Source of the DNA: a virus | Reading direction: 5' to 3' (one strand) | Virus genome (UHGV): UHGV-1464012 | DNA length: 33,909 nt | In this document: positions 30,205 to 33,909 of the stretch, in pieces | Layout: each line of letters starts with the position of its first letter | Numbering within the stretch: the first letter of the stretch is position 1 | Program-made: the position numbers and the translations under genes | The notes under the pieces: model-generated | The model's input: only the letters and a program-made list of their open reading frames with translations | The model's database searches: none | Told to the model about the DNA's origin: nothing

Positions 30205-30654
30205 GTGTTCATGCTTACTTGTTTTGATGTCGCCGACTACTTCCTGTCGCGGTGTGACGAGGATAGCGGTGACACAATCTCTAATTTAAAATTACAAAAG
30301 CTTGTTTATTATGCTCAGGGTTTTTCATTGGCGTTGCTTGGCGAGCCTCTTTTTCAGAATAAGATGGAAGCTTGGATGCATGGCCCTGTTGTCCCTGAGC
30401 TTTATCGCCGTTATAAACAATATGGTAATGGCGCTATCCCTTCTCCAGAGTCTTTTGATGCTGAAAAATTCAGCGAAGAACAGTTAGAGCTATTAGAAGA
30501 AGTCTGGGATGTTTTTGGGCAATTTTCTGCCTGGAAACTGAGGAACATGACACACGAAGAGTCACCATGGAGATCAAACTATATTGAGGGTGTTGGTGGT
30601 TCTGAAATTAGCTCTAAGGAGATGGCAGAGTACTTTGCAACTCGGATTAACTAA
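30205..30654 (+). CDS. Panacea-domain (DUF4065, SocA/GepA-like) putative antitoxin
   Basis: 149 aa; NLKLQKLVYYAQGFSLALLGEPLF...EAWMHGPVVPELY matches the DUF4065/Panacea signature as I recall it; GGAGG upstream of the GTG start. Confidence 0.7.
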   Translation: MFMLTCFDVADYFLSRCDEDSGDTISNLKLQKLVYYAQGFSLALLGEPLFQNKMEAWMHGPVVPELYRRYKQYGNGAIPSPESFDAEKFSEEQLELLEEVWDVFGQFSAWKLRNMTHEESPWRSNYIEGVGGSEISSKEMAEYFATRIN

Positions 30655-30658
30655 CGAG

Positions 30659-31078
30659 ATGGCAAGAAAATCTAAAAGGATTATCCCCCCTGCTGAATCT
30701 ACAGGTAAGTTAAAGTTAGGGCCGCAGTCAGGGGGGAATTCAGATCAAAAGAAACCGAAATTTTCATTCTGTTACATCCAAAGCTCTCACTGCATAACGA
30801 AATGCCAAAAAGATGAGAAAGCTGGCTTAGCTGATAAATTATACAGATTAAGTCAACTAACATGGGCAGAGATTAAGCAGCAAGGTAGGCATAAGCTTGG
30901 ATTTGAGAAGATTGCAAGGGGTGCAATTAAAGCTGGTATCCCCGGTCATATAACGGAAGACGTAGATCATTTCTTGGCTTTTAGATTTGATGATTTGAAA
31001 GCCATGGTTGGTTATCGTCTTGGATCGACATTTTTTGTTATATGGCTTGATAGAGAGTTCAACCTATACAAGCACTAA
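30659..31078 (+). CDS. putative toxin partner of the Panacea-domain protein (unknown family)
   Basis: Start 4 nt after the upstream stop (the track ORF begins earlier, at 30584); Lys-rich N-terminus; the C-terminus (MVGYRLGSTFFVIWLDREFNLYKH) loosely resembles RelE/ParE-type toxin ends; AT-rich. Confidence 0.5.
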   Translation: MARKSKRIIPPAESTGKLKLGPQSGGNSDQKKPKFSFCYIQSSHCITKCQKDEKAGLADKLYRLSQLTWAEIKQQGRHKLGFEKIARGAIKAGIPGHITEDVDHFLAFRFDDLKAMVGYRLGSTFFVIWLDREFNLYKH

Positions 31079-31080
31079 TA

Positions 31081-31107
31081 AAACCCACCGTCAGGTGGGT
31101 TTTTTAT
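31081..31107. terminator. bidirectional rho-independent terminator between the convergent toxin and ClpP-like genes
   Basis: AACCCACC-GTCA-GGTGGGTT stem flanked by an A-run upstream and a T-run downstream. Confidence 0.6.
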
Positions 31108-31130
31108 AAGGAGTAATCATGATTTACCCA

Positions 31131-31667
31131 TCAAACAACCCACCAGTTTGCCTGATTGGATGCCAGCCTTGCAGTTTTTATGGAATTAATTATGCCATGC
31201 TCAAGAGCCTTGTTAGCATCCAAAATGGTCGAGTCTGCTATCAGGGATGCCCACCTAATATGGGTTCCGATGTCGATATTGAACGTCTCAACGAAGCGAT
31301 CAAGATCGTTATCGAGGCATTTCCCGTACTCTCTCAATCTGGCATGGTCGGCGGCTGGGGAGGCAAAGCACCATAATAGAGGATGTAACAGGAATCTTGA
31401 TAATGGGTTTGCGAAACGTTCTGAGCCAGCCAGGAAAACGATATTAGCTATGGATTCAACATTGCTTATGTTGTGAGTTCTAACGGTAACAGGGAGTGAC
31501 TTAAGAAAGTTATACGCAGTAAAGCCAGCGGCAGTTTCCCCTCCCTGACTTGATATATGGATATTTAATTCAGTTGCGCCTTGAGATAATGCGGTGAGAC
31601 AGTGGTTCTGAAGTTGCCCAACAGTGGCAGTGTTAACGGGGCATAAGAAATGAATTGTGTGCAGCAT
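31131..31667 (-). CDS. ClpP-fold serine peptidase-like protein (S14-like), co-transcribed with the mnt-like gene
   Basis: 178 aa; ISSQGGETAAG parallels the ClpP INSPGG motif; candidate Ser (VESIAN), His (LLHPL) and Asp positions; start overlaps the mnt-like stop (TAATG). Confidence 0.6.
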   Translation of the reverse strand: MLHTIHFLCPVNTATVGQLQNHCLTALSQGATELNIHISSQGGETAAGFTAYNFLKSLPVTVRTHNISNVESIANIVFLAGSERFANPLSRFLLHPLLWCFASPAADHARLREYGKCLDNDLDRFVETFNIDIGTHIRWASLIADSTILDANKALEHGIINSIKTARLASNQANWWVV

Positions 31668-31915
31668 TATTTTTCATCCTTAGCATACATGGTCTTTAGC
31701 GTCTCAAGTAGCGCCTCTTTGAATTTATCAGCTTCTTGGTTAGCGAATCCTTCAAGTGAGCGAGAGCCATCAAGATTATCAACATGTTTTTGAAGGATAA
31801 GCACGATCTCTGAGTTCATTGATCTGCCGTTTTTATCCGCTTCTTGCTGAATGCGTTTCTTTAAATAGTCTGGAATCCTAATCCCCAATGGACTGATATC
31901 TCTTGCACCTTTCAT
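31667..31915 (-). CDS. mnt: Mnt-like ribbon-helix-helix repressor
   Basis: Internal start MKGARDISPLGIRIP...EADKNGRSMNSEIVLILQ; the NGRSMNSE core matches P22 Mnt as I recall it; GGAGGAG precedes the start. Confidence 0.75.
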   Translation of the reverse strand: MKGARDISPLGIRIPDYLKKRIQQEADKNGRSMNSEIVLILQKHVDNLDGSRSLEGFANQEADKFKEALLETLKTMYAKDEK

Positions 31916-31940
31916 TTCTCCTCCTGCACGCTGTGCGTAG

Positions 31941-32010
31941 CTACACAGTGTAGGCAAAAAAATTTTGACTTTAAATAAACACGGTGTAGTATTTAGTTAT
32001 CACGGTGTAG
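31941..32010. promoter_or_regulatory. divergent mnt / arc-ant control region with three copies of CACRGTGTAG
   Basis: Perfect palindrome CTACAC-A-GTGTAG (31941-31953) plus two direct copies of CACGGTGTAG (31980-31989 and 32001-32010) spaced 21 bp, between the divergent RHH repressor genes. Confidence 0.5.
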
Positions 32011-32023
32011 CAAGCGAGGGGAA

Positions 32024-32164
32024 ATGAAAGTTAGAGACATCGCTCCATTAGGGATTCGTATCCCGCCAGAGATTAAAGAAAAATTGAAGGAAAAGGCTAA
32101 GGAGGAGGGCAGGTCTTTAAATTCAGAAATAGTGCAGCGTCTTATTCGCAGCCTAAAAAGTTGA
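32024..32164 (+). CDS. arc: Arc-like ribbon-helix-helix repressor (46 aa; absent from the ORF track)
   Basis: Hand translation gives MKVRDIAPLGIRIPPEIKEKLKEKAKEEGRSLNSEIVQRLIRSLKS; the EEGRSLNSEI core parallels P22 Arc; GAGG upstream; directly upstream of ant. Confidence 0.65.
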   Translation: MKVRDIAPLGIRIPPEIKEKLKEKAKEEGRSLNSEIVQRLIRSLKS

Positions 32165-32227
32165 AGCCCCAACTGCGGGAACAGTCAGGGCTTCGGTATC
32201 GTAAAACCACGCATAGGAATTAACGAC

Positions 32228-33151
32228 ATGACGAGTGTAGCAATTGCAGAACATACAATCAACGTTCCATTCCACGGAACAAATCTCTTTTTGGTCAGCA
32301 TTAACAATGAACCTTACGTTCCTATGAAACCCGTTGTAGAAGGCATGGGTATGGTTTGGGCTGCTCAATTTGTTAAATTAAAACAGAGATTTGTCAAAGG
32401 TATTTCGGAAATCGAAATACCTTCTGCTGGCGGTAAACAGTTAATGATATGCCTTGCCTTTCGTAAGTTTGCGGCTTGGCTTTCAAGCATTCAGCCAAAC
32501 AAAGTCCGCCCTGAAATCCGCGACAAGGTAATCCAGTATCAGGAAGAGTGTGACGATGTGCTCTACGAATACTGGACTAAAGGCCATGTAGTTAACCCGC
32601 GCAAAGCTAAAAAGGCATTGCCGGGGAAAATCACCACTGAACAGCAGGAAGCCATTAAACAACTCGTCATGAGTCGCGGTCAGTCTCTTCCAAAAGAAAA
32701 ACAGGCTAAGGCGATGATCACCATGTGGTCGTCACTGAAATCCCATTTTGGATGTTCGTACAAAGAGATCAGTGAGGAGCAGTTTACCGAAGCACTATCA
32801 CTTGCAGCTCGAGTTCCACTTGAAGGTGAGTTCATTGGCAAACAAGAGAAGAAAGCAAACGAGCTTTCTGCAAAAGAAGCAAACAGCCTTGTATGGTTAT
32901 GGGATTATGCCAACCGCTCACAGGCATTATTCCGCGAACTGTATCCGGCGCTAAAACAAATTCAATCGAACTATTCCGGCAGATGTCATGACTGCGGTTA
33001 TGAGTTCTCCCGTATTATCGATATGGCGAGAGATGTTTTAATCAACCATACACGAGATGTTGATATTAATGAGCCAGACGGACCAACGAATCTTTCCGCA
33101 TGGATGAGACTTAAGAATAAAGAATTACCTCCTTCAGTACATAACTACTGA
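32228..33151 (+). CDS. ant: antirepressor (Ant-like)
   Basis: 307 aa in the immI position downstream of the Arc-like gene and followed by a terminator. Confidence 0.75.
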   Translation: MTSVAIAEHTINVPFHGTNLFLVSINNEPYVPMKPVVEGMGMVWAAQFVKLKQRFVKGISEIEIPSAGGKQLMICLAFRKFAAWLSSIQPNKVRPEIRDKVIQYQEECDDVLYEYWTKGHVVNPRKAKKALPGKITTEQQEAIKQLVMSRGQSLPKEKQAKAMITMWSSLKSHFGCSYKEISEEQFTEALSLAARVPLEGEFIGKQEKKANELSAKEANSLVWLWDYANRSQALFRELYPALKQIQSNYSGRCHDCGYEFSRIIDMARDVLINHTRDVDINEPDGPTNLSAWMRLKNKELPPSVHNY

Positions 33152-33169
33152 CAGATAACCAACGCAACG

Positions 33170-33194
33170 ACCCAGCTTCGGCTGGGTTTTTTTA
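33170..33194 (+). terminator. rho-independent terminator after ant
   Basis: ACCCAGC-TTCG-GCTGGGT hairpin followed by 7 T. Confidence 0.6.
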
Positions 33195-33251: not shown

Positions 33252-33909
33252 ATGACAGATATCACCGCAAATGTTGTGGTAAGCATGCCTTCGCAACTCT
33301 TCACTATGGCGCGTTCTTTTAAAGCTGTAGCCAATGGCAAAATTTATATCGGTAAAATTGACACTGACCCGGTAAATCCTGAAAACCAGATTCAGGCTTA
33401 TGTGGAGAACGAAGACGGCTCTCACGTTCCTGTTTCGCAACCAATCATCATTAACGCTGCTGGATATCCGGTATATAACGGACAGATTGCCAAGTTCGTA
33501 ACTGTGCAAGGTCACTCTATGGCTGTGTACGATGCATATGGTTCACAGCAGTTTTATTTTCCTAATGTGCTGAAGTATGATCCTGATCAGTTACGGCGGC
33601 AATTAGAAGACCCAGATGGAGCGAATAAATACCCAAAACTTCAGATAGCAAGATGGAGAGACAGTTATGATGTAAGAGGTTGGGGGGCTATTGGTGATGG
33701 TGTTCATGATGATACATCAGCTCTATCAGAATTACTTTCTGTTGCAACAGGTGGTGAAAAGATAGATGGGCGAGGGCTTACTTTTAAAGTATCAACTCTT
33801 CCAGATGTCAGTCGATTTAAAAATGCTCGTTTTTTATTTGAGAGAATACCGGGTCAGCCTCTTTTTTATGCTTCTGAAGATTTTATCCAGGGAGAGTTAT
33901 TTAAAATTA
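33252..33909 (+). CDS. tailspike protein, 5' part only (P22 gp9-like head-binding domain, then a divergent beta-helix domain; runs off the window)
   Basis: N-terminus [13 protein letters not shown]...[26 protein letters not shown]...[17 protein letters not shown]...NVLKYDPDQ resembles the P22 tailspike head-binding domain; later [15 protein letters not shown] is pectate-lyase-like; GGAG upstream. Confidence 0.85.

What the first reader, a model, noticed from the sequence alone, without database searches (positions are those of the whole stretch)
31916..32227. Arc-like gene missing from the ORF track, next to triplicated operator-like repeats
Hand translation of 32024-32164 gives a 46-aa ribbon-helix-helix protein, shorter than the ORF track's 60-aa cutoff. 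It is divergent from the Mnt-like gene and directly upstream of ant, the arrangement of P22 immI. The intergenic DNA carries one perfect palindrome CTACAC-A-GTGTAG and two direct copies of CACGGTGTAG 21 bp apart. Both repressors share an N-terminal D-I-x-P-L-G-I-R-I-P strand region, so they may read the same or related half-sites. The repeats include CACGGTG, which I recall from the centre of the P22 Mnt operator.
Basis: seen in the sequence. Interest (0 to 1): 0.5.

Follow-up and report, generated by a model that had tools for sequence, protein, structure and literature searches.

The report
Antirepressor switch using one operator type
This is the antirepressor control region (mnt, arc, sar, ant) of a P22-like E. 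coli prophage; it is a known kind of switch, but here both small repressors have almost the same DNA-reading end and the control DNA carries three copies of a single operator instead of P22's two different ones.

Summary
32024-32164(+) encodes a 46-aa ribbon-helix-helix protein (Pfam Arc, E 5e-13). It is absent from the ORF track only because of the 60-aa cutoff, and RefSeq and a phage record already annotate it. It lies divergent from an 82-aa Mnt-like gene (31667-31915, -) and upstream of ant. The antisense sar RNA (Rfam, 84.6 bits) spans the arc-ant gap, so this is a P22 immI module.

The 108-bp control region holds three copies of CAC[A/G]GTGTAG. They are the only exact copies in 33.9 kb, and 0 of 3000 shuffles match the pattern.

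In about 100 related loci the repeats change when the repressors' N-terminal strands change. Alleles with PxGxR strands keep CTACAY-N-RTGTAG sites at fixed offsets from the Pant -35 (-24, +12, +33/34) while the spacers diverge. P22-type and phiv205-type alleles have two different strands and two different operator types.

The two window N-termini are 12/14 identical despite near-saturated synonymous divergence (pS 0.63), so selection maintains the identity.

Best reading: one operator family read by both repressors, placed over Pmnt, the Pant -10 and the Pant start. Binding itself is untested. This is a new variant of a known system, of moderate interest.

The parts
31131..31667 (-). ClpP-like serine protease gene (178 aa). 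It is the distal gene of the mnt-like operon, and its ATG overlaps the mnt-like stop codon (TAATG).
   Evidence: Pfam CLP_protease E 2e-11. PHROG head-maturation protease. The same gene follows mnt-like in L001, L002 and L003 but is replaced in L004 and L006.
31667..31915 (-). Mnt-like repressor gene (82 aa): a ribbon-helix-helix domain plus a C-terminal extension. The AGGAGG ribosome-binding site is at 31920-31925.
   Evidence: Pfam Arc E 6e-8. The best solved relative is P22 Mnt, 1mnt, E 4.8e-5, aligned over residues 4-74 with ARDISPLGIRIP ungapped against ARDDPHFNFRMP. pN/pS is 0.20 against L020.
31941..31953 (.). Operator site A: the perfect 13-bp palindrome CTACACAGTGTAG. It starts 24 bp before the Pant -35 and contains the proposed Pmnt -10.
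   Evidence: It is conserved at 11-13 of 13 positions and at the same offset in all PxGxR alleles, while the adjacent spacer drops to 1-8 of 11.
31948..31976 (-). Proposed Pmnt (inferred): -35 TTTAAA (31976-31971), 17-nt spacer, -10 TACACT (31953-31948).
   Evidence: Read directly from the sequence. It scores 8/12, below the scan threshold, so one search does not list it. Three points support it: the centre base of site A is A in every allele, giving the final T of the -10, whereas the centres of B and C vary; TACACT is retained in phiv205-type alleles that lack site A; and the same hexamer serves as the -10 of Psar.
31965..31992 (+). Pant-like promoter: TTGACT, 16 nt, TAGTAT.
   Evidence: It is the only sigma-70-like site on this strand in the region. 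The -35 is conserved across allele classes. It sits at the position equivalent to the annotated P22 Pant.
31977..31989 (.). Operator site B: AAACACGGTGTAG. It lies in the Pant spacer, and its last three bases (TAG) are the first three of the -10.
   Evidence: The offset is +12 from the -35 start in class 1, L020 and class 3 alleles.
31998..32010 (.). Operator site C: TATCACGGTGTAG. It lies over the expected Pant start site, 21 bp (two helical turns) from B.
   Evidence: The offset is +33/+34 in class 1, L020 and class 3 alleles.
32024..32164 (+). Arc-like repressor gene (46 aa): a ribbon-helix-helix domain only.
   Evidence: Pfam Arc E 5e-13. PDB hits to Arc and Mnt. The frame is intact in 16 class-1 loci, and pN/pS is 0.09 against L020 at pS 0.89. 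It is annotated as WP_000868195.1 and XSB41639.1.
32159..32226 (-). sar antisense RNA, with its terminator hairpin at 32163-32194.
   Evidence: Rfam RF00262, 84.6 bits (gathering score 43), full length 1-68. A terminator-like site is on the minus strand.
32234..32262 (-). Psar by positional homology: TTGATT, 17 nt, TACACT.
   Evidence: Its offsets from the ant ATG (+6 to +34) equal those of the annotated P22 Psar (L005 2577-2605 against ant 2571). The sequence was read.
32228..33151 (+). ant antirepressor gene (307 aa), followed by a terminator at 33169-33188.
   Evidence: Pfam P22_AR_N E 7e-40 and P22_AR_C E 1e-27. Terminator.

Best explanation
This is the secondary immunity (immI) region of a P22-like E. 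coli prophage. A leftward operon encodes the Mnt-like repressor and a ClpP-like protein. A rightward operon encodes the Arc-like repressor and the Ant antirepressor. The antisense sar RNA is present, and a 108-bp control region lies between the two operons.

Unlike P22, which has one Arc operator and one different Mnt operator, this allele has three copies of a single operator family, CTACAY-N-RTGTAG:
- Site A covers the probable -10 of Pmnt.
- Site B covers the spacer and -10 of Pant.
- Site C covers the Pant start site.

Both repressors carry almost the same N-terminal DNA-reading strand, RDI[S/A]PLGIRIP, so both most likely bind all three sites.

Proposed operation (inferred):
- In the lysogen, the Mnt-like protein, probably a tetramer through its C-terminal extension as in P22 Mnt, occupies B and C. 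These lie two helical turns apart. This keeps arc-ant silent, and binding at A limits the protein's own synthesis.
- After infection, unrepressed Pant makes the Arc-like protein and Ant. The Arc-like protein then returns to the same sites and shuts off Pant and Pmnt.
- sar RNA blocks residual ant translation.

Shown here: gene and RNA identities, the repeats, their conservation, and their covariation with the reading strand. Inferred: binding, promoter positions, oligomeric states and timing.
For: Identity of the module:
- Pfam Arc hits for both small proteins, and P22_AR_N/C for ant.
- sar RNA at 84.6 bits.
- Same layout as the annotated P22 immI.
- A 98%-identical prophage in E. coli W4 places the module between the DNA-transfer genes and the tailspike.

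The repeats are real:
- They are the only three exact copies in the window.
- 0 of 3000 shuffles reproduce the pattern.

Operator assignment, from divergent RHH pairs extracted from about 100 loci:
- Class 1 (the window type), L020 and class 3 keep 13-bp sites at offsets -24, +12 and +33/34 from the -35.
- Between the window and L068, site A is 11/13 identical and the -35 is 6/6, but the spacers are 1/11 and 2/6.
- P22-type, L076-type and phiv205-type alleles have other N-terminal strands and other palindromes.
- sar RNA is also present in L020, L056, L080 and L087, so these are true immI modules.

Shared reading head:
- The N-terminal 14 codons are 86% identical at the protein level, with pS 0.63 and pN 0.12.
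- The rest of the domain is 35% identical.
- The Arc-like body is nevertheless closer to other Arcs (16/32 and 14/32) than to its partner Mnt (11/32).

Literature (titles and statements only):
- In one search, the paper text says a single amino-acid change in Mnt alters the preferred binding site, and the reference list includes the title of the Arc/Mnt hybrid paper.
- P22 immI logic is summarised in PMC11016777 and PMC2629481.

Natural variant L007 combines Arc-like R12H, a Pant -35 change TTGACT to TCGACT, and a change in site B. This is what an arc defect compensated by a weaker promoter would look like.
Against: - No binding or transcription data exist for this allele.
- Pmnt is only an 8/12 consensus match and the promoter scan did not call it. 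Its -35 is poor in other classes.
- Sites B and C lack the outer left arm (10-11 of 13 matches). They could differ functionally from A.
- The two N-termini differ at two aligned positions, and the Arc-like arm is one residue shorter. This could still separate their specificities.
- Window versus L020 cannot isolate the sites, because the whole 70-bp core is conserved between them.
- Class 2 (Xenorhabdus-type) alleles keep site A but replace B and C with direct half-site repeats 11 bp apart. The three-palindrome layout is therefore not universal.
- It is unresolved whether one dimer or two dimers bind each 13-bp site.
Confidence: 0.62

Rival explanations
1. The sites are divided between the repressors as in P22. 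The Arc-like protein mainly uses B, which lies between the -35 and -10 where P22 Oarc sits. The Mnt-like protein mainly uses C, at the start site where P22 Omnt sits, and A. The small differences in the N-terminal arms and in the outer left arms of the sites give each protein its own preference.
For: - Positional homology with the annotated P22 operators.
- In phiv205-type alleles the B position holds an Arc-type AGATA-N12-TATCT element. A different repeat family occupies the flanks.
- In class 3, the left arm of B changes (CTACAT to GCTCAY) together with the Arc strand (PFG to PTG), while the Mnt strand stays constant.
Against: - B and C share an identical 10-mer, CACGGTGTAG, in the window.
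- The two reading strands are 12/14 identical.
- In L068 all three sites are perfect palindromes of one family.
- The class 3 covariation rests on only two or three lineages.
Confidence: 0.25
2. The repeats are not operators. They are promoter-associated sequence or remnants of a 21-bp duplication, with no repressor binding.
For: - B and C lie within a 19-nt direct repeat of 79% identity.
- The GTGTAG and TACACT motifs overlap -10-like hexamers.
- A single 6-N-6 palindrome is not rare.
Against: - Palindromic symmetry.
- Fixed offsets across diverged alleles while the spacers diverge.
- The repeat sequence changes when the N-terminal strand changes.
- 0 of 3000 shuffles reproduce the pattern.
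Confidence: 0.05
3. The 46-aa ORF is a decaying remnant of arc, and only the Mnt-like protein is functional.
For: - It is 7 aa shorter than P22 Arc.
- Degraded arc genes are reported in some P22-like phages (PMC2629481).
- One relative, L007, carries R12H.
Against: - The frame is intact in 16 loci, and pN/pS is 0.09 at saturated pS against L020.
- The ribbon-helix-helix domain is complete and has the stronger Pfam score of the two proteins.
- A Shine-Dalgarno-like GAGGGG lies just upstream of the ATG.
Confidence: 0.05

Closest known systems
Salmonella phage P22 immI region (mnt, Pmnt/Pant, Oarc, Omnt, arc, sar, ant)
   Same: - Same genes in the same order and orientation.
- sar RNA and its terminator are homologous.
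- Psar lies at the same offset from the ant ATG.
- The operator core CAC-N-GTG matches the centre of Omnt.
- The module lies in the 'ant moron' slot before the tailspike.
   Different: - P22 has two unrelated operators, Oarc (ATGATAGAAGCACTCTACTAT) and Omnt (GGTCCACGGTGGACC). Here there is one family in three copies, with no TAGA/TCTA element.
- P22 has no site upstream of the Pant -35, and its spacer is 90 bp against 108 bp here.
- P22 Pant and Pmnt overlap face to face. Here they appear to be back to back.
- The Mnt-like protein is only 32% identical to P22 Mnt, and the Arc-like protein 39% identical to P22 Arc.
- A ClpP-like gene follows mnt here, instead of orf59a/sieA.
Engineered Arc/Mnt hybrid repressors (Knight & Sauer 1989; Raumann, Knight & Sauer 1995; cited by title)
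   Same: The window's Arc-like protein looks like a natural counterpart. Its body is Arc-type (helix B IVQRLIRSLK against P22 IYQRVMESFK), and its N-terminal reading strand matches an Mnt protein (12/14 with its partner). It aligns ungapped to P22 Mnt R2-D3...R10-x-P12.
   Different: It is natural rather than engineered. The strand is PLGIR, with Pro and Gly at the positions of P22 Mnt His6 and Asn8. Its binding is untested. The papers could not be read here.
immI alleles of E. coli phages phiv205-1 and EC.P3 and Salmonella phage S.Kent 1-2-1
   Same: - Same backbone: the Mnt C-terminus is nearly identical.
- The GCAAAAAAATTTTGACT promoter core is shared.
- The ClpP-like gene, sar and ant are also shared.
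   Different: - The N-terminal strands differ from each other (GVSISPTTVRIP against EISKILVRMP).
- The repeats differ (TTTGATATCAAA and AGATA-N12-TATCT).
- An extra ORF lies between arc and ant.
Plasmid repressor CopG and other ribbon-helix-helix autoregulators
   Same: From my own knowledge, CopG is a small ribbon-helix-helix protein that binds a 13-bp pseudo-symmetric element overlapping its own promoter.
   Different: It controls plasmid copy number with a single repressor. It has no paired paralogue and no antirepressor. This comparison was not tested here.

Membership tests
P22-type immI (secondary immunity) module | Two divergently transcribed ribbon-helix-helix repressor genes flanking a short control region | tested here: met
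   31667-31915(-) and 32024-32164(+), both above the Pfam Arc gathering score.
P22-type immI (secondary immunity) module | arc lies directly upstream of, and in the same orientation as, an antirepressor gene | tested here: met
   ant at 32228-33151 has P22_AR_N (E 7e-40) and P22_AR_C (E 1e-27).
P22-type immI (secondary immunity) module | sar antisense RNA across the arc-ant junction | tested here: met
   RF00262 at 84.6 bits against a gathering score of 43, full length, 32159-32226(-).
P22-type immI (secondary immunity) module | Position in the late operon between the DNA-injection genes and the tailspike | tested here: met
   The 98%-identical E. coli W4 prophage has DNA transfer proteins upstream and the tailspike downstream. 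In the window a P22-type tailspike N-terminus starts at 33253; I identified it by eye and ran no family search on it.
P22-type immI (secondary immunity) module | Two distinct operators, one for Arc and one for Mnt | tested here: not met
   The spacer holds only one repeat family, in three copies, and no TAGA/TCTA element. P22-type loci have both operators.
P22-type immI (secondary immunity) module | The repressors bind the operators and control Pant and Pmnt | not testable with these tools
   Needs EMSA or footprinting and reporter fusions.
Arc/Mnt ribbon-helix-helix family (Pfam PF03869) | Profile match above the curated cutoff | tested here: met
   49.1 and 32.8 bits against a cutoff of 20.4. 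PDB hits to 1mnt, Arc and the single-chain Arc construct pArc (1u9p).
Arc/Mnt ribbon-helix-helix family (Pfam PF03869) | N-terminal strand with a conserved Arg and Pro, and a GRSxNSE loop | tested here: met
   R, P, R, S, N, S and E are invariant columns in the six-sequence alignment.
P22 Mnt orthologue | Full-length similarity, including the C-terminal tetramerisation region | tested here: inconclusive
   Aligns to 1mnt residues 1-75 at E 4.8e-5 with 32% identity. The oligomeric state was not predicted.
P22 Mnt orthologue | Recognition residues His6 and Asn8, and the operator GGTCCAC-G-GTGGACC | tested here: not met
   The equivalent residues are Pro and Gly. The operator shares the CAC-N-GTG core but has TAG rather than GAC outside it.
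P22 Arc orthologue | PQFNLRW reading strand and an operator containing TAGA | tested here: not met
   The strand is APLGIRI, with N-terminal identity of 4/14 to P22 Arc. The spacer has no TAGA/TCTA.
YlcI/YnfO family (the RefSeq name for the 46-aa protein) | NCBIfam NF041551 above its cutoff | tested here: met
   33.2 bits against a cutoff of 30, over 30 residues only. This is a marginal, generic ribbon-helix-helix match, and the context shows the protein is the arc equivalent.

The most novel reading that the evidence does not exclude
This would be a natural immI circuit in which the Arc and Mnt paralogues are kept by selection on one shared DNA specificity and compete for the same three operators. 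Only oligomeric state and time of synthesis would then separate the lysogenic decision (Mnt) from the lytic one (Arc).

The allele series (P22-type, L076-type, and classes 1, 2 and 3) would also give a natural recognition code for the ribbon-helix-helix strand:
- Arg at Mnt position 2 goes with inner CAC/GTG.
- Pro6/Gly8 goes with outer TAG.
- His6/Asn8 goes with GAC.
- Gln6/Lys8 goes with GTT.
Probability: 0.45. Interest if true: 0.45.

Novelty: new variant of a known kind. Interest (0 to 1): 0.35.

Why it matters
P22 Arc and Mnt are textbook models for DNA recognition by beta-sheets and for repressor specificity.

This allele family appears in E. coli prophages, in phage PhiR12 and in relatives from Xenorhabdus and other hosts. 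It would provide natural specificity swaps with matching operators, and a differently wired antirepressor switch with three sites and one specificity. Both points could be tested with simple gel shifts and reporter fusions.

For genome annotation, the 46-aa gene labelled 'hypothetical' or 'YlcI/YnfO family' is the arc equivalent, and its partner is mnt. The product name 'partition protein ATPase', attached to mnt in the RefSeq P22 record and in PHROGs, is wrong for this family.

It does not change the general picture of how immI works.

Tried and rejected
- **Primary literature.** I tried to read the papers on Mnt-operator contacts to check two recollections: that a His6-to-Pro change alters Mnt specificity, and that Arg2 contacts the operator centre. 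The papers were PMC55749, PMC140065, PMC506813 and PMC286564. None is held, so both points remain recollections. Only paper titles and one secondary sentence are cited.
- **Pmnt.** The promoter scan found Pant but no leftward promoter. The proposed Pmnt is therefore my own weaker reading.
- **P22-style promoter layout.** A face-to-face overlapping Pmnt, as in P22, was looked for by eye and rejected. No -35/-10 pair better than 5/12 lies on the minus strand to the right of Pant.
- **GTGTAG at 32235 (start of ant, inside the Psar -10).** Considered as a fourth operator and rejected. It matches only 8/13, and PhiR12_1 has AGTATAG there.
- **Possible extra site over the mnt leader.** CTGCACGCTGTAG (11/13) occurs in PhiR12-like relatives but is weaker in the window. 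Not pursued.
- **Window versus L020 as a footprint.** Rejected as uninformative, because the whole 70-bp core is conserved.
- **PhiR12 literature.** A search found nothing relevant.
- **Searches not run.** I did not run the large protein searches or structure prediction. Family membership was already clear, and the available predictor does not model protein-DNA complexes or oligomers.

Full report
**1. What is in the sequence**

Lowering the ORF cutoff reveals the 46-aa ORF at 32024-32164(+): MKVRDIAPLGIRIPPEIKEKLKEKAKEEGRSLNSEIVQRLIRSLKS. It was missing from the first-stage ORF track only because that track stops at 60 aa.

On the other strand, 31667-31915 encodes an 82-aa protein starting MKGARDISPLGIRIP. 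An AGGAGG ribosome-binding site lies 4 nt upstream of its ATG.

The 108-bp spacer (31916-32023) contains three related elements:
- the perfect palindrome CTACACAGTGTAG at 31941-31953 (site A);
- CACGGTGTAG at 31980-31989;
- CACGGTGTAG at 32001-32010.

The right part of the palindrome, CACAGTGTAG at 31944, is a third direct copy. As 13-mers the sites are:
- A: CTACACAGTGTAG (31941-31953)
- B: AAACACGGTGTAG (31977-31989)
- C: TATCACGGTGTAG (31998-32010)

**2. Is it more than chance?**

- The three exact matches to CACRGTGTAG are the only ones on either strand of the whole 33.9-kb window. Base composition predicts 0.12.
- That pattern was chosen after looking, so I also used a statistic with no prior pattern. 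Three non-overlapping copies of any 10-mer, with one mismatch allowed, occurred in 0 of 3000 shuffles of the spacer.
- A single 6-N-6 palindrome is not unusual: the window has 10, with about 8 expected. The signal is the triplication.

**3. Identity of the genes**

- Both small proteins exceed the Pfam Arc (PF03869) gathering score, at 49.1 and 32.8 bits against 20.4.
- The best solved relative of the 82-aa protein is P22 Mnt (1mnt, E 4.8e-5), aligned over residues 4-74. ARDISPLGIRIP aligns ungapped against ARDDPHFNFRMP.
- The next gene, 32228-33151, is an Ant antirepressor (P22_AR_N E 7e-40; P22_AR_C E 1e-27).
- The arc-ant gap holds a full-length match to the sar antisense RNA (RF00262, 84.6 bits against a gathering score of 43; 32159-32226, minus strand). 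Its terminator hairpin is present.
- By position, Psar (TTGATT-17-TACACT, 32262-32234) has the same offsets from the ant ATG as the annotated P22 Psar.

This is therefore the immI secondary immunity region of a P22-like phage. Its function in P22 is established. Mnt represses arc-ant, Arc represses mnt and moderates ant, sar RNA binds ant mRNA, and overexpressed Ant keeps the C2 prophage repressor off its operators and triggers the lytic cycle (PMC11016777; PMC2629481). The latter paper also documents that this 'ant moron' is highly variable among P22-like phages.

**4. Is it already annotated?**

Yes.
- A 98%-identical prophage next to tRNA-Arg/intS in E. coli W4 annotates the 46-aa gene as WP_000868195.1, 'YlcI/YnfO family protein'. 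It annotates the partner as 'Arc family DNA-binding protein'.
- The YlcI/YnfO name comes from a marginal NCBIfam hit, 33.2 bits against a cutoff of 30.
- Phages PhiR12_1, PhiR12_4 and PhiR12_5 carry the module at 95.7% identity, with the ClpP-like, mnt-like and arc-like genes labelled hypothetical. In PhiR12_1, the one record examined, it lies between tail genes L and K of a lambda-like tail cluster.
- 19 of 5426 complete E. coli genomes hold at least 80% of 31667-32227.
- Among 50,697 phage records only the three PhiR12 phages do. The others share only the sar terminator or partial flanks.

**5. Comparative test of the operator idea**

An alignment of Mnt-like proteins was used to fetch 80 viral and 19 genomic loci. 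From these a script extracted 77 divergent ribbon-helix-helix gene pairs with their spacers, giving 49 distinct combinations. They fall into allele classes in which the repeats change with the N-terminal strands.

| Class | Mnt strand | Arc strand | Repeats in the spacer |
|---|---|---|---|
| P22-type | ARDDPHFNFRMP | PQFNLRWP | Oarc plus GGTCCACGGTGGACC |
| L076 | SREDPQFKLRLP | (not compared) | GAACCACCGTGGTTC |
| phiv205-1 / EC.P3-type | GVSISPTTVRIP | EISKILVRMP | TTTGATATCAAA plus AGATA-N12-TATCT |
| Class 1 (window type) | ARDISPLGIRIP | VRDIAPLGIRIP | three CAC-N-GTGTAG sites |
| Class 2 (Xenorhabdus and others) | MRGLTPMGVRIP | MREVSPLGLRID | ATCACAGTGTAGCTA at A, and two direct AGCTACAC 11 bp apart |
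| Class 3 | ASNIAPLGVRLP | IPPFGVRM or I[AP]PTG[IV]R | three CTACAT-N-ATGTAG palindromes |

The main contrast is this. Where Arc and Mnt have different strands, the spacer has two kinds of repeat. Where both have a PxGxR strand, it has one kind.

**6. Conserved geometry**

- In class 1, L020 and class 3, the 13-bp sites start at -24, +12 and +33/+34 relative to the first base of the Pant -35.
- In an alignment anchored on the -35, window against L068 gives: site A 11/13, spacer 1/11, -35 6/6, next spacer 2/6, site B 9/13. This is a phylogenetic footprint.
- sar RNA is also found in L020, L056, L080 and L087, so these are real immI modules.
- Class 2 keeps A but not the B and C palindromes, so the layout has variants.
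- Window against L020 is not informative for this purpose, because the whole 70-bp core is conserved.

**7. Position relative to promoters**

- The scan finds one sigma-70-like site on the plus strand, TTGACT-16-TAGTAT (31965-31992). It is equivalent to P22 Pant.
- Site B fills the spacer, and its TAG forms the first half of the -10. Site C covers the expected start, about 31999.
- No leftward promoter was called. My reading is TTTAAA-17-TACACT (31976-31948), with the -10 inside site A.
- Three observations support this reading:
  - The centre base of A is A in every class, which gives the final T of the hexamer on the minus strand. The centres of B and C are G, C or T.
  - TACACT is retained in phiv205-type spacers, where the palindrome is different.
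  - The same hexamer is the -10 of Psar.
- The assignment remains an inference.

**8. Do both repressors read the same sites?**

- Over the first 14 aligned codons the two window proteins are 86% identical, with pS 0.63 and pN 0.12. Over the remaining 31 codons they are 35% identical, with pS 0.84 and pN 0.46. Selection on the protein therefore maintains the identity; recent gene conversion does not explain it.
- The body of the Arc-like protein is closer to other Arcs (16/32 and 14/32; helix B 6/11 and 5/11) than to its partner Mnt (11/32; helix B 3/11). It looks like an Arc body carrying its partner's reading strand.
- Because B and C have identical 10-bp cores, cross-binding seems hard to avoid.
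- The small ORF is under strong purifying selection (pN/pS 0.09 at pS 0.89 against L020) and is intact in 16 class-1 loci.

**9. Relation to the P22 Mnt operator**

- Aligned on the dyad, the P22 half-site G-T-G-G-A-C-C corresponds to G-T-G-T-A-G here. The inner GTG is shared and the outer bases differ.
- Correspondingly, Arg2, Asp3, Arg10 and Pro12 of Mnt are kept, while His6 becomes Pro and Asn8 becomes Gly.
- Across classes, alleles with Arg at position 2 have inner CAC/GTG, and class 3 (Ser at that position) mostly has CAT/ATG.
- I recall that residue 6 is the 'master residue' for Mnt specificity and that His6-to-Pro gives altered specificity. I could not read those papers, so this is a lead and has not been tested.

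**10. Mechanism proposed (inferred)**

- Lysogen: the Mnt-like protein is made from Pmnt together with the ClpP-like protein. It binds B and C, which are 21 bp apart on the same face, and blocks Pant. Binding at A limits Pmnt.
- Infection: Pant fires and makes the Arc-like protein and Ant. The Arc-like protein then closes Pant and Pmnt through the same sites.
- With Pant off, sar RNA blocks ant translation.
- Differences from P22: three sites rather than two, one specificity rather than two, and apparently back-to-back rather than overlapping promoters.
- Main rival: the sites are partitioned as in P22, with B for Arc and A and C for Mnt. Positional homology and a weak class 3 covariation favour it.

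**11. Verdict**

The system is a known kind (immI) in a variant regulatory design that, as far as my searches show, has not been described. Interest is moderate. It offers a natural specificity series for a classic DNA-binding family, and it does not reveal a new kind of system.

Noticed in passing
window 31131-31667 (-): A ClpP-like serine protease gene (178 aa) whose start overlaps the mnt-like stop codon (TAATG), so it is probably made in the lysogen together with the repressor. By eye the Ser/His/Asp motifs look intact. It follows mnt-like in PhiR12_1, phiv205-1 and EC.P3, but other genes replace it in E. coli W4 and S.Kent 1-2-1. It has no PADLOC hit. Its function in this position is unknown.
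   Followed up: partly
window 30205-31078 (+): A Panacea/SocA-domain gene (149 aa, Pfam E 2e-24) overlaps a 164-aa ORF of unknown function (phrog_8366; weak PADLOC NsnC hit, E 1e-5). This looks like a toxin-antitoxin or defence-like pair in the same variable slot. The same pair is annotated in E. coli W4.
   Followed up: partly
L007 (IMGVR_UViG_2675903606_000016), spacer and arc-like gene at about 1553-1802: One relative combines three changes: Arc-like R12H at the conserved strand arginine, Pant -35 TTGACT to TCGACT, and a G-to-A change in site B. This resembles an arc defect compensated by a weaker Pant. From memory, classical P22 genetics gave the same pattern.
   Followed up: no
window 31909-31923 and 32016-32030: The two divergent genes share a mirrored ribosome-binding-site-plus-start sequence, GAGG[A/G]GAAATGAAAG (a 15-nt inverted repeat, 93% complementary). 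It may be a relic of an inverted duplication. It is less similar in PhiR12_1.
   Followed up: no
window 32234-32239 / 32235-32240: The -10 of Psar is TACACT, the same hexamer as the proposed Pmnt -10. It contains a lone GTGTAG half-site at the start of ant. The half-site is absent from PhiR12_1, so it is probably not an operator.
   Followed up: partly
L005 (P22 NC_002371) mnt; PHROGs phrog_2685 and phrog_795: The RefSeq P22 record names the mnt product 'partition protein ATPase'. The PHROG families that both window repressors hit best carry the same name. This looks like a propagated annotation error.
   Followed up: no
L001 (phage PhiR12_1) 2532-4544: The whole clpP-like/mnt/arc/ant cassette sits between tail genes L and K of a lambda-like siphovirus, not before a P22 tailspike. 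The module therefore moves as a unit between different phage types.
   Followed up: no
L056 (an IMG/VR viral contig; the identical control region also occurs in Xenorhabdus sp. TCT-1, L088) 981-2490: This locus holds several additional ribbon-helix-helix genes around the immI pair. In class 2 spacers, B and C are replaced by two direct AGCTACAC half-sites 11 bp apart. This may bear on whether a half-site binds one dimer.
   Followed up: no
window 31073-31118: Weak matches to terminator-like parts of sRNA families on both strands (sroH and STnc420, far below their thresholds) lie between the convergent 30584-31078(+) and 31131-31667(-) genes. This is probably a bidirectional terminator.
   Followed up: no
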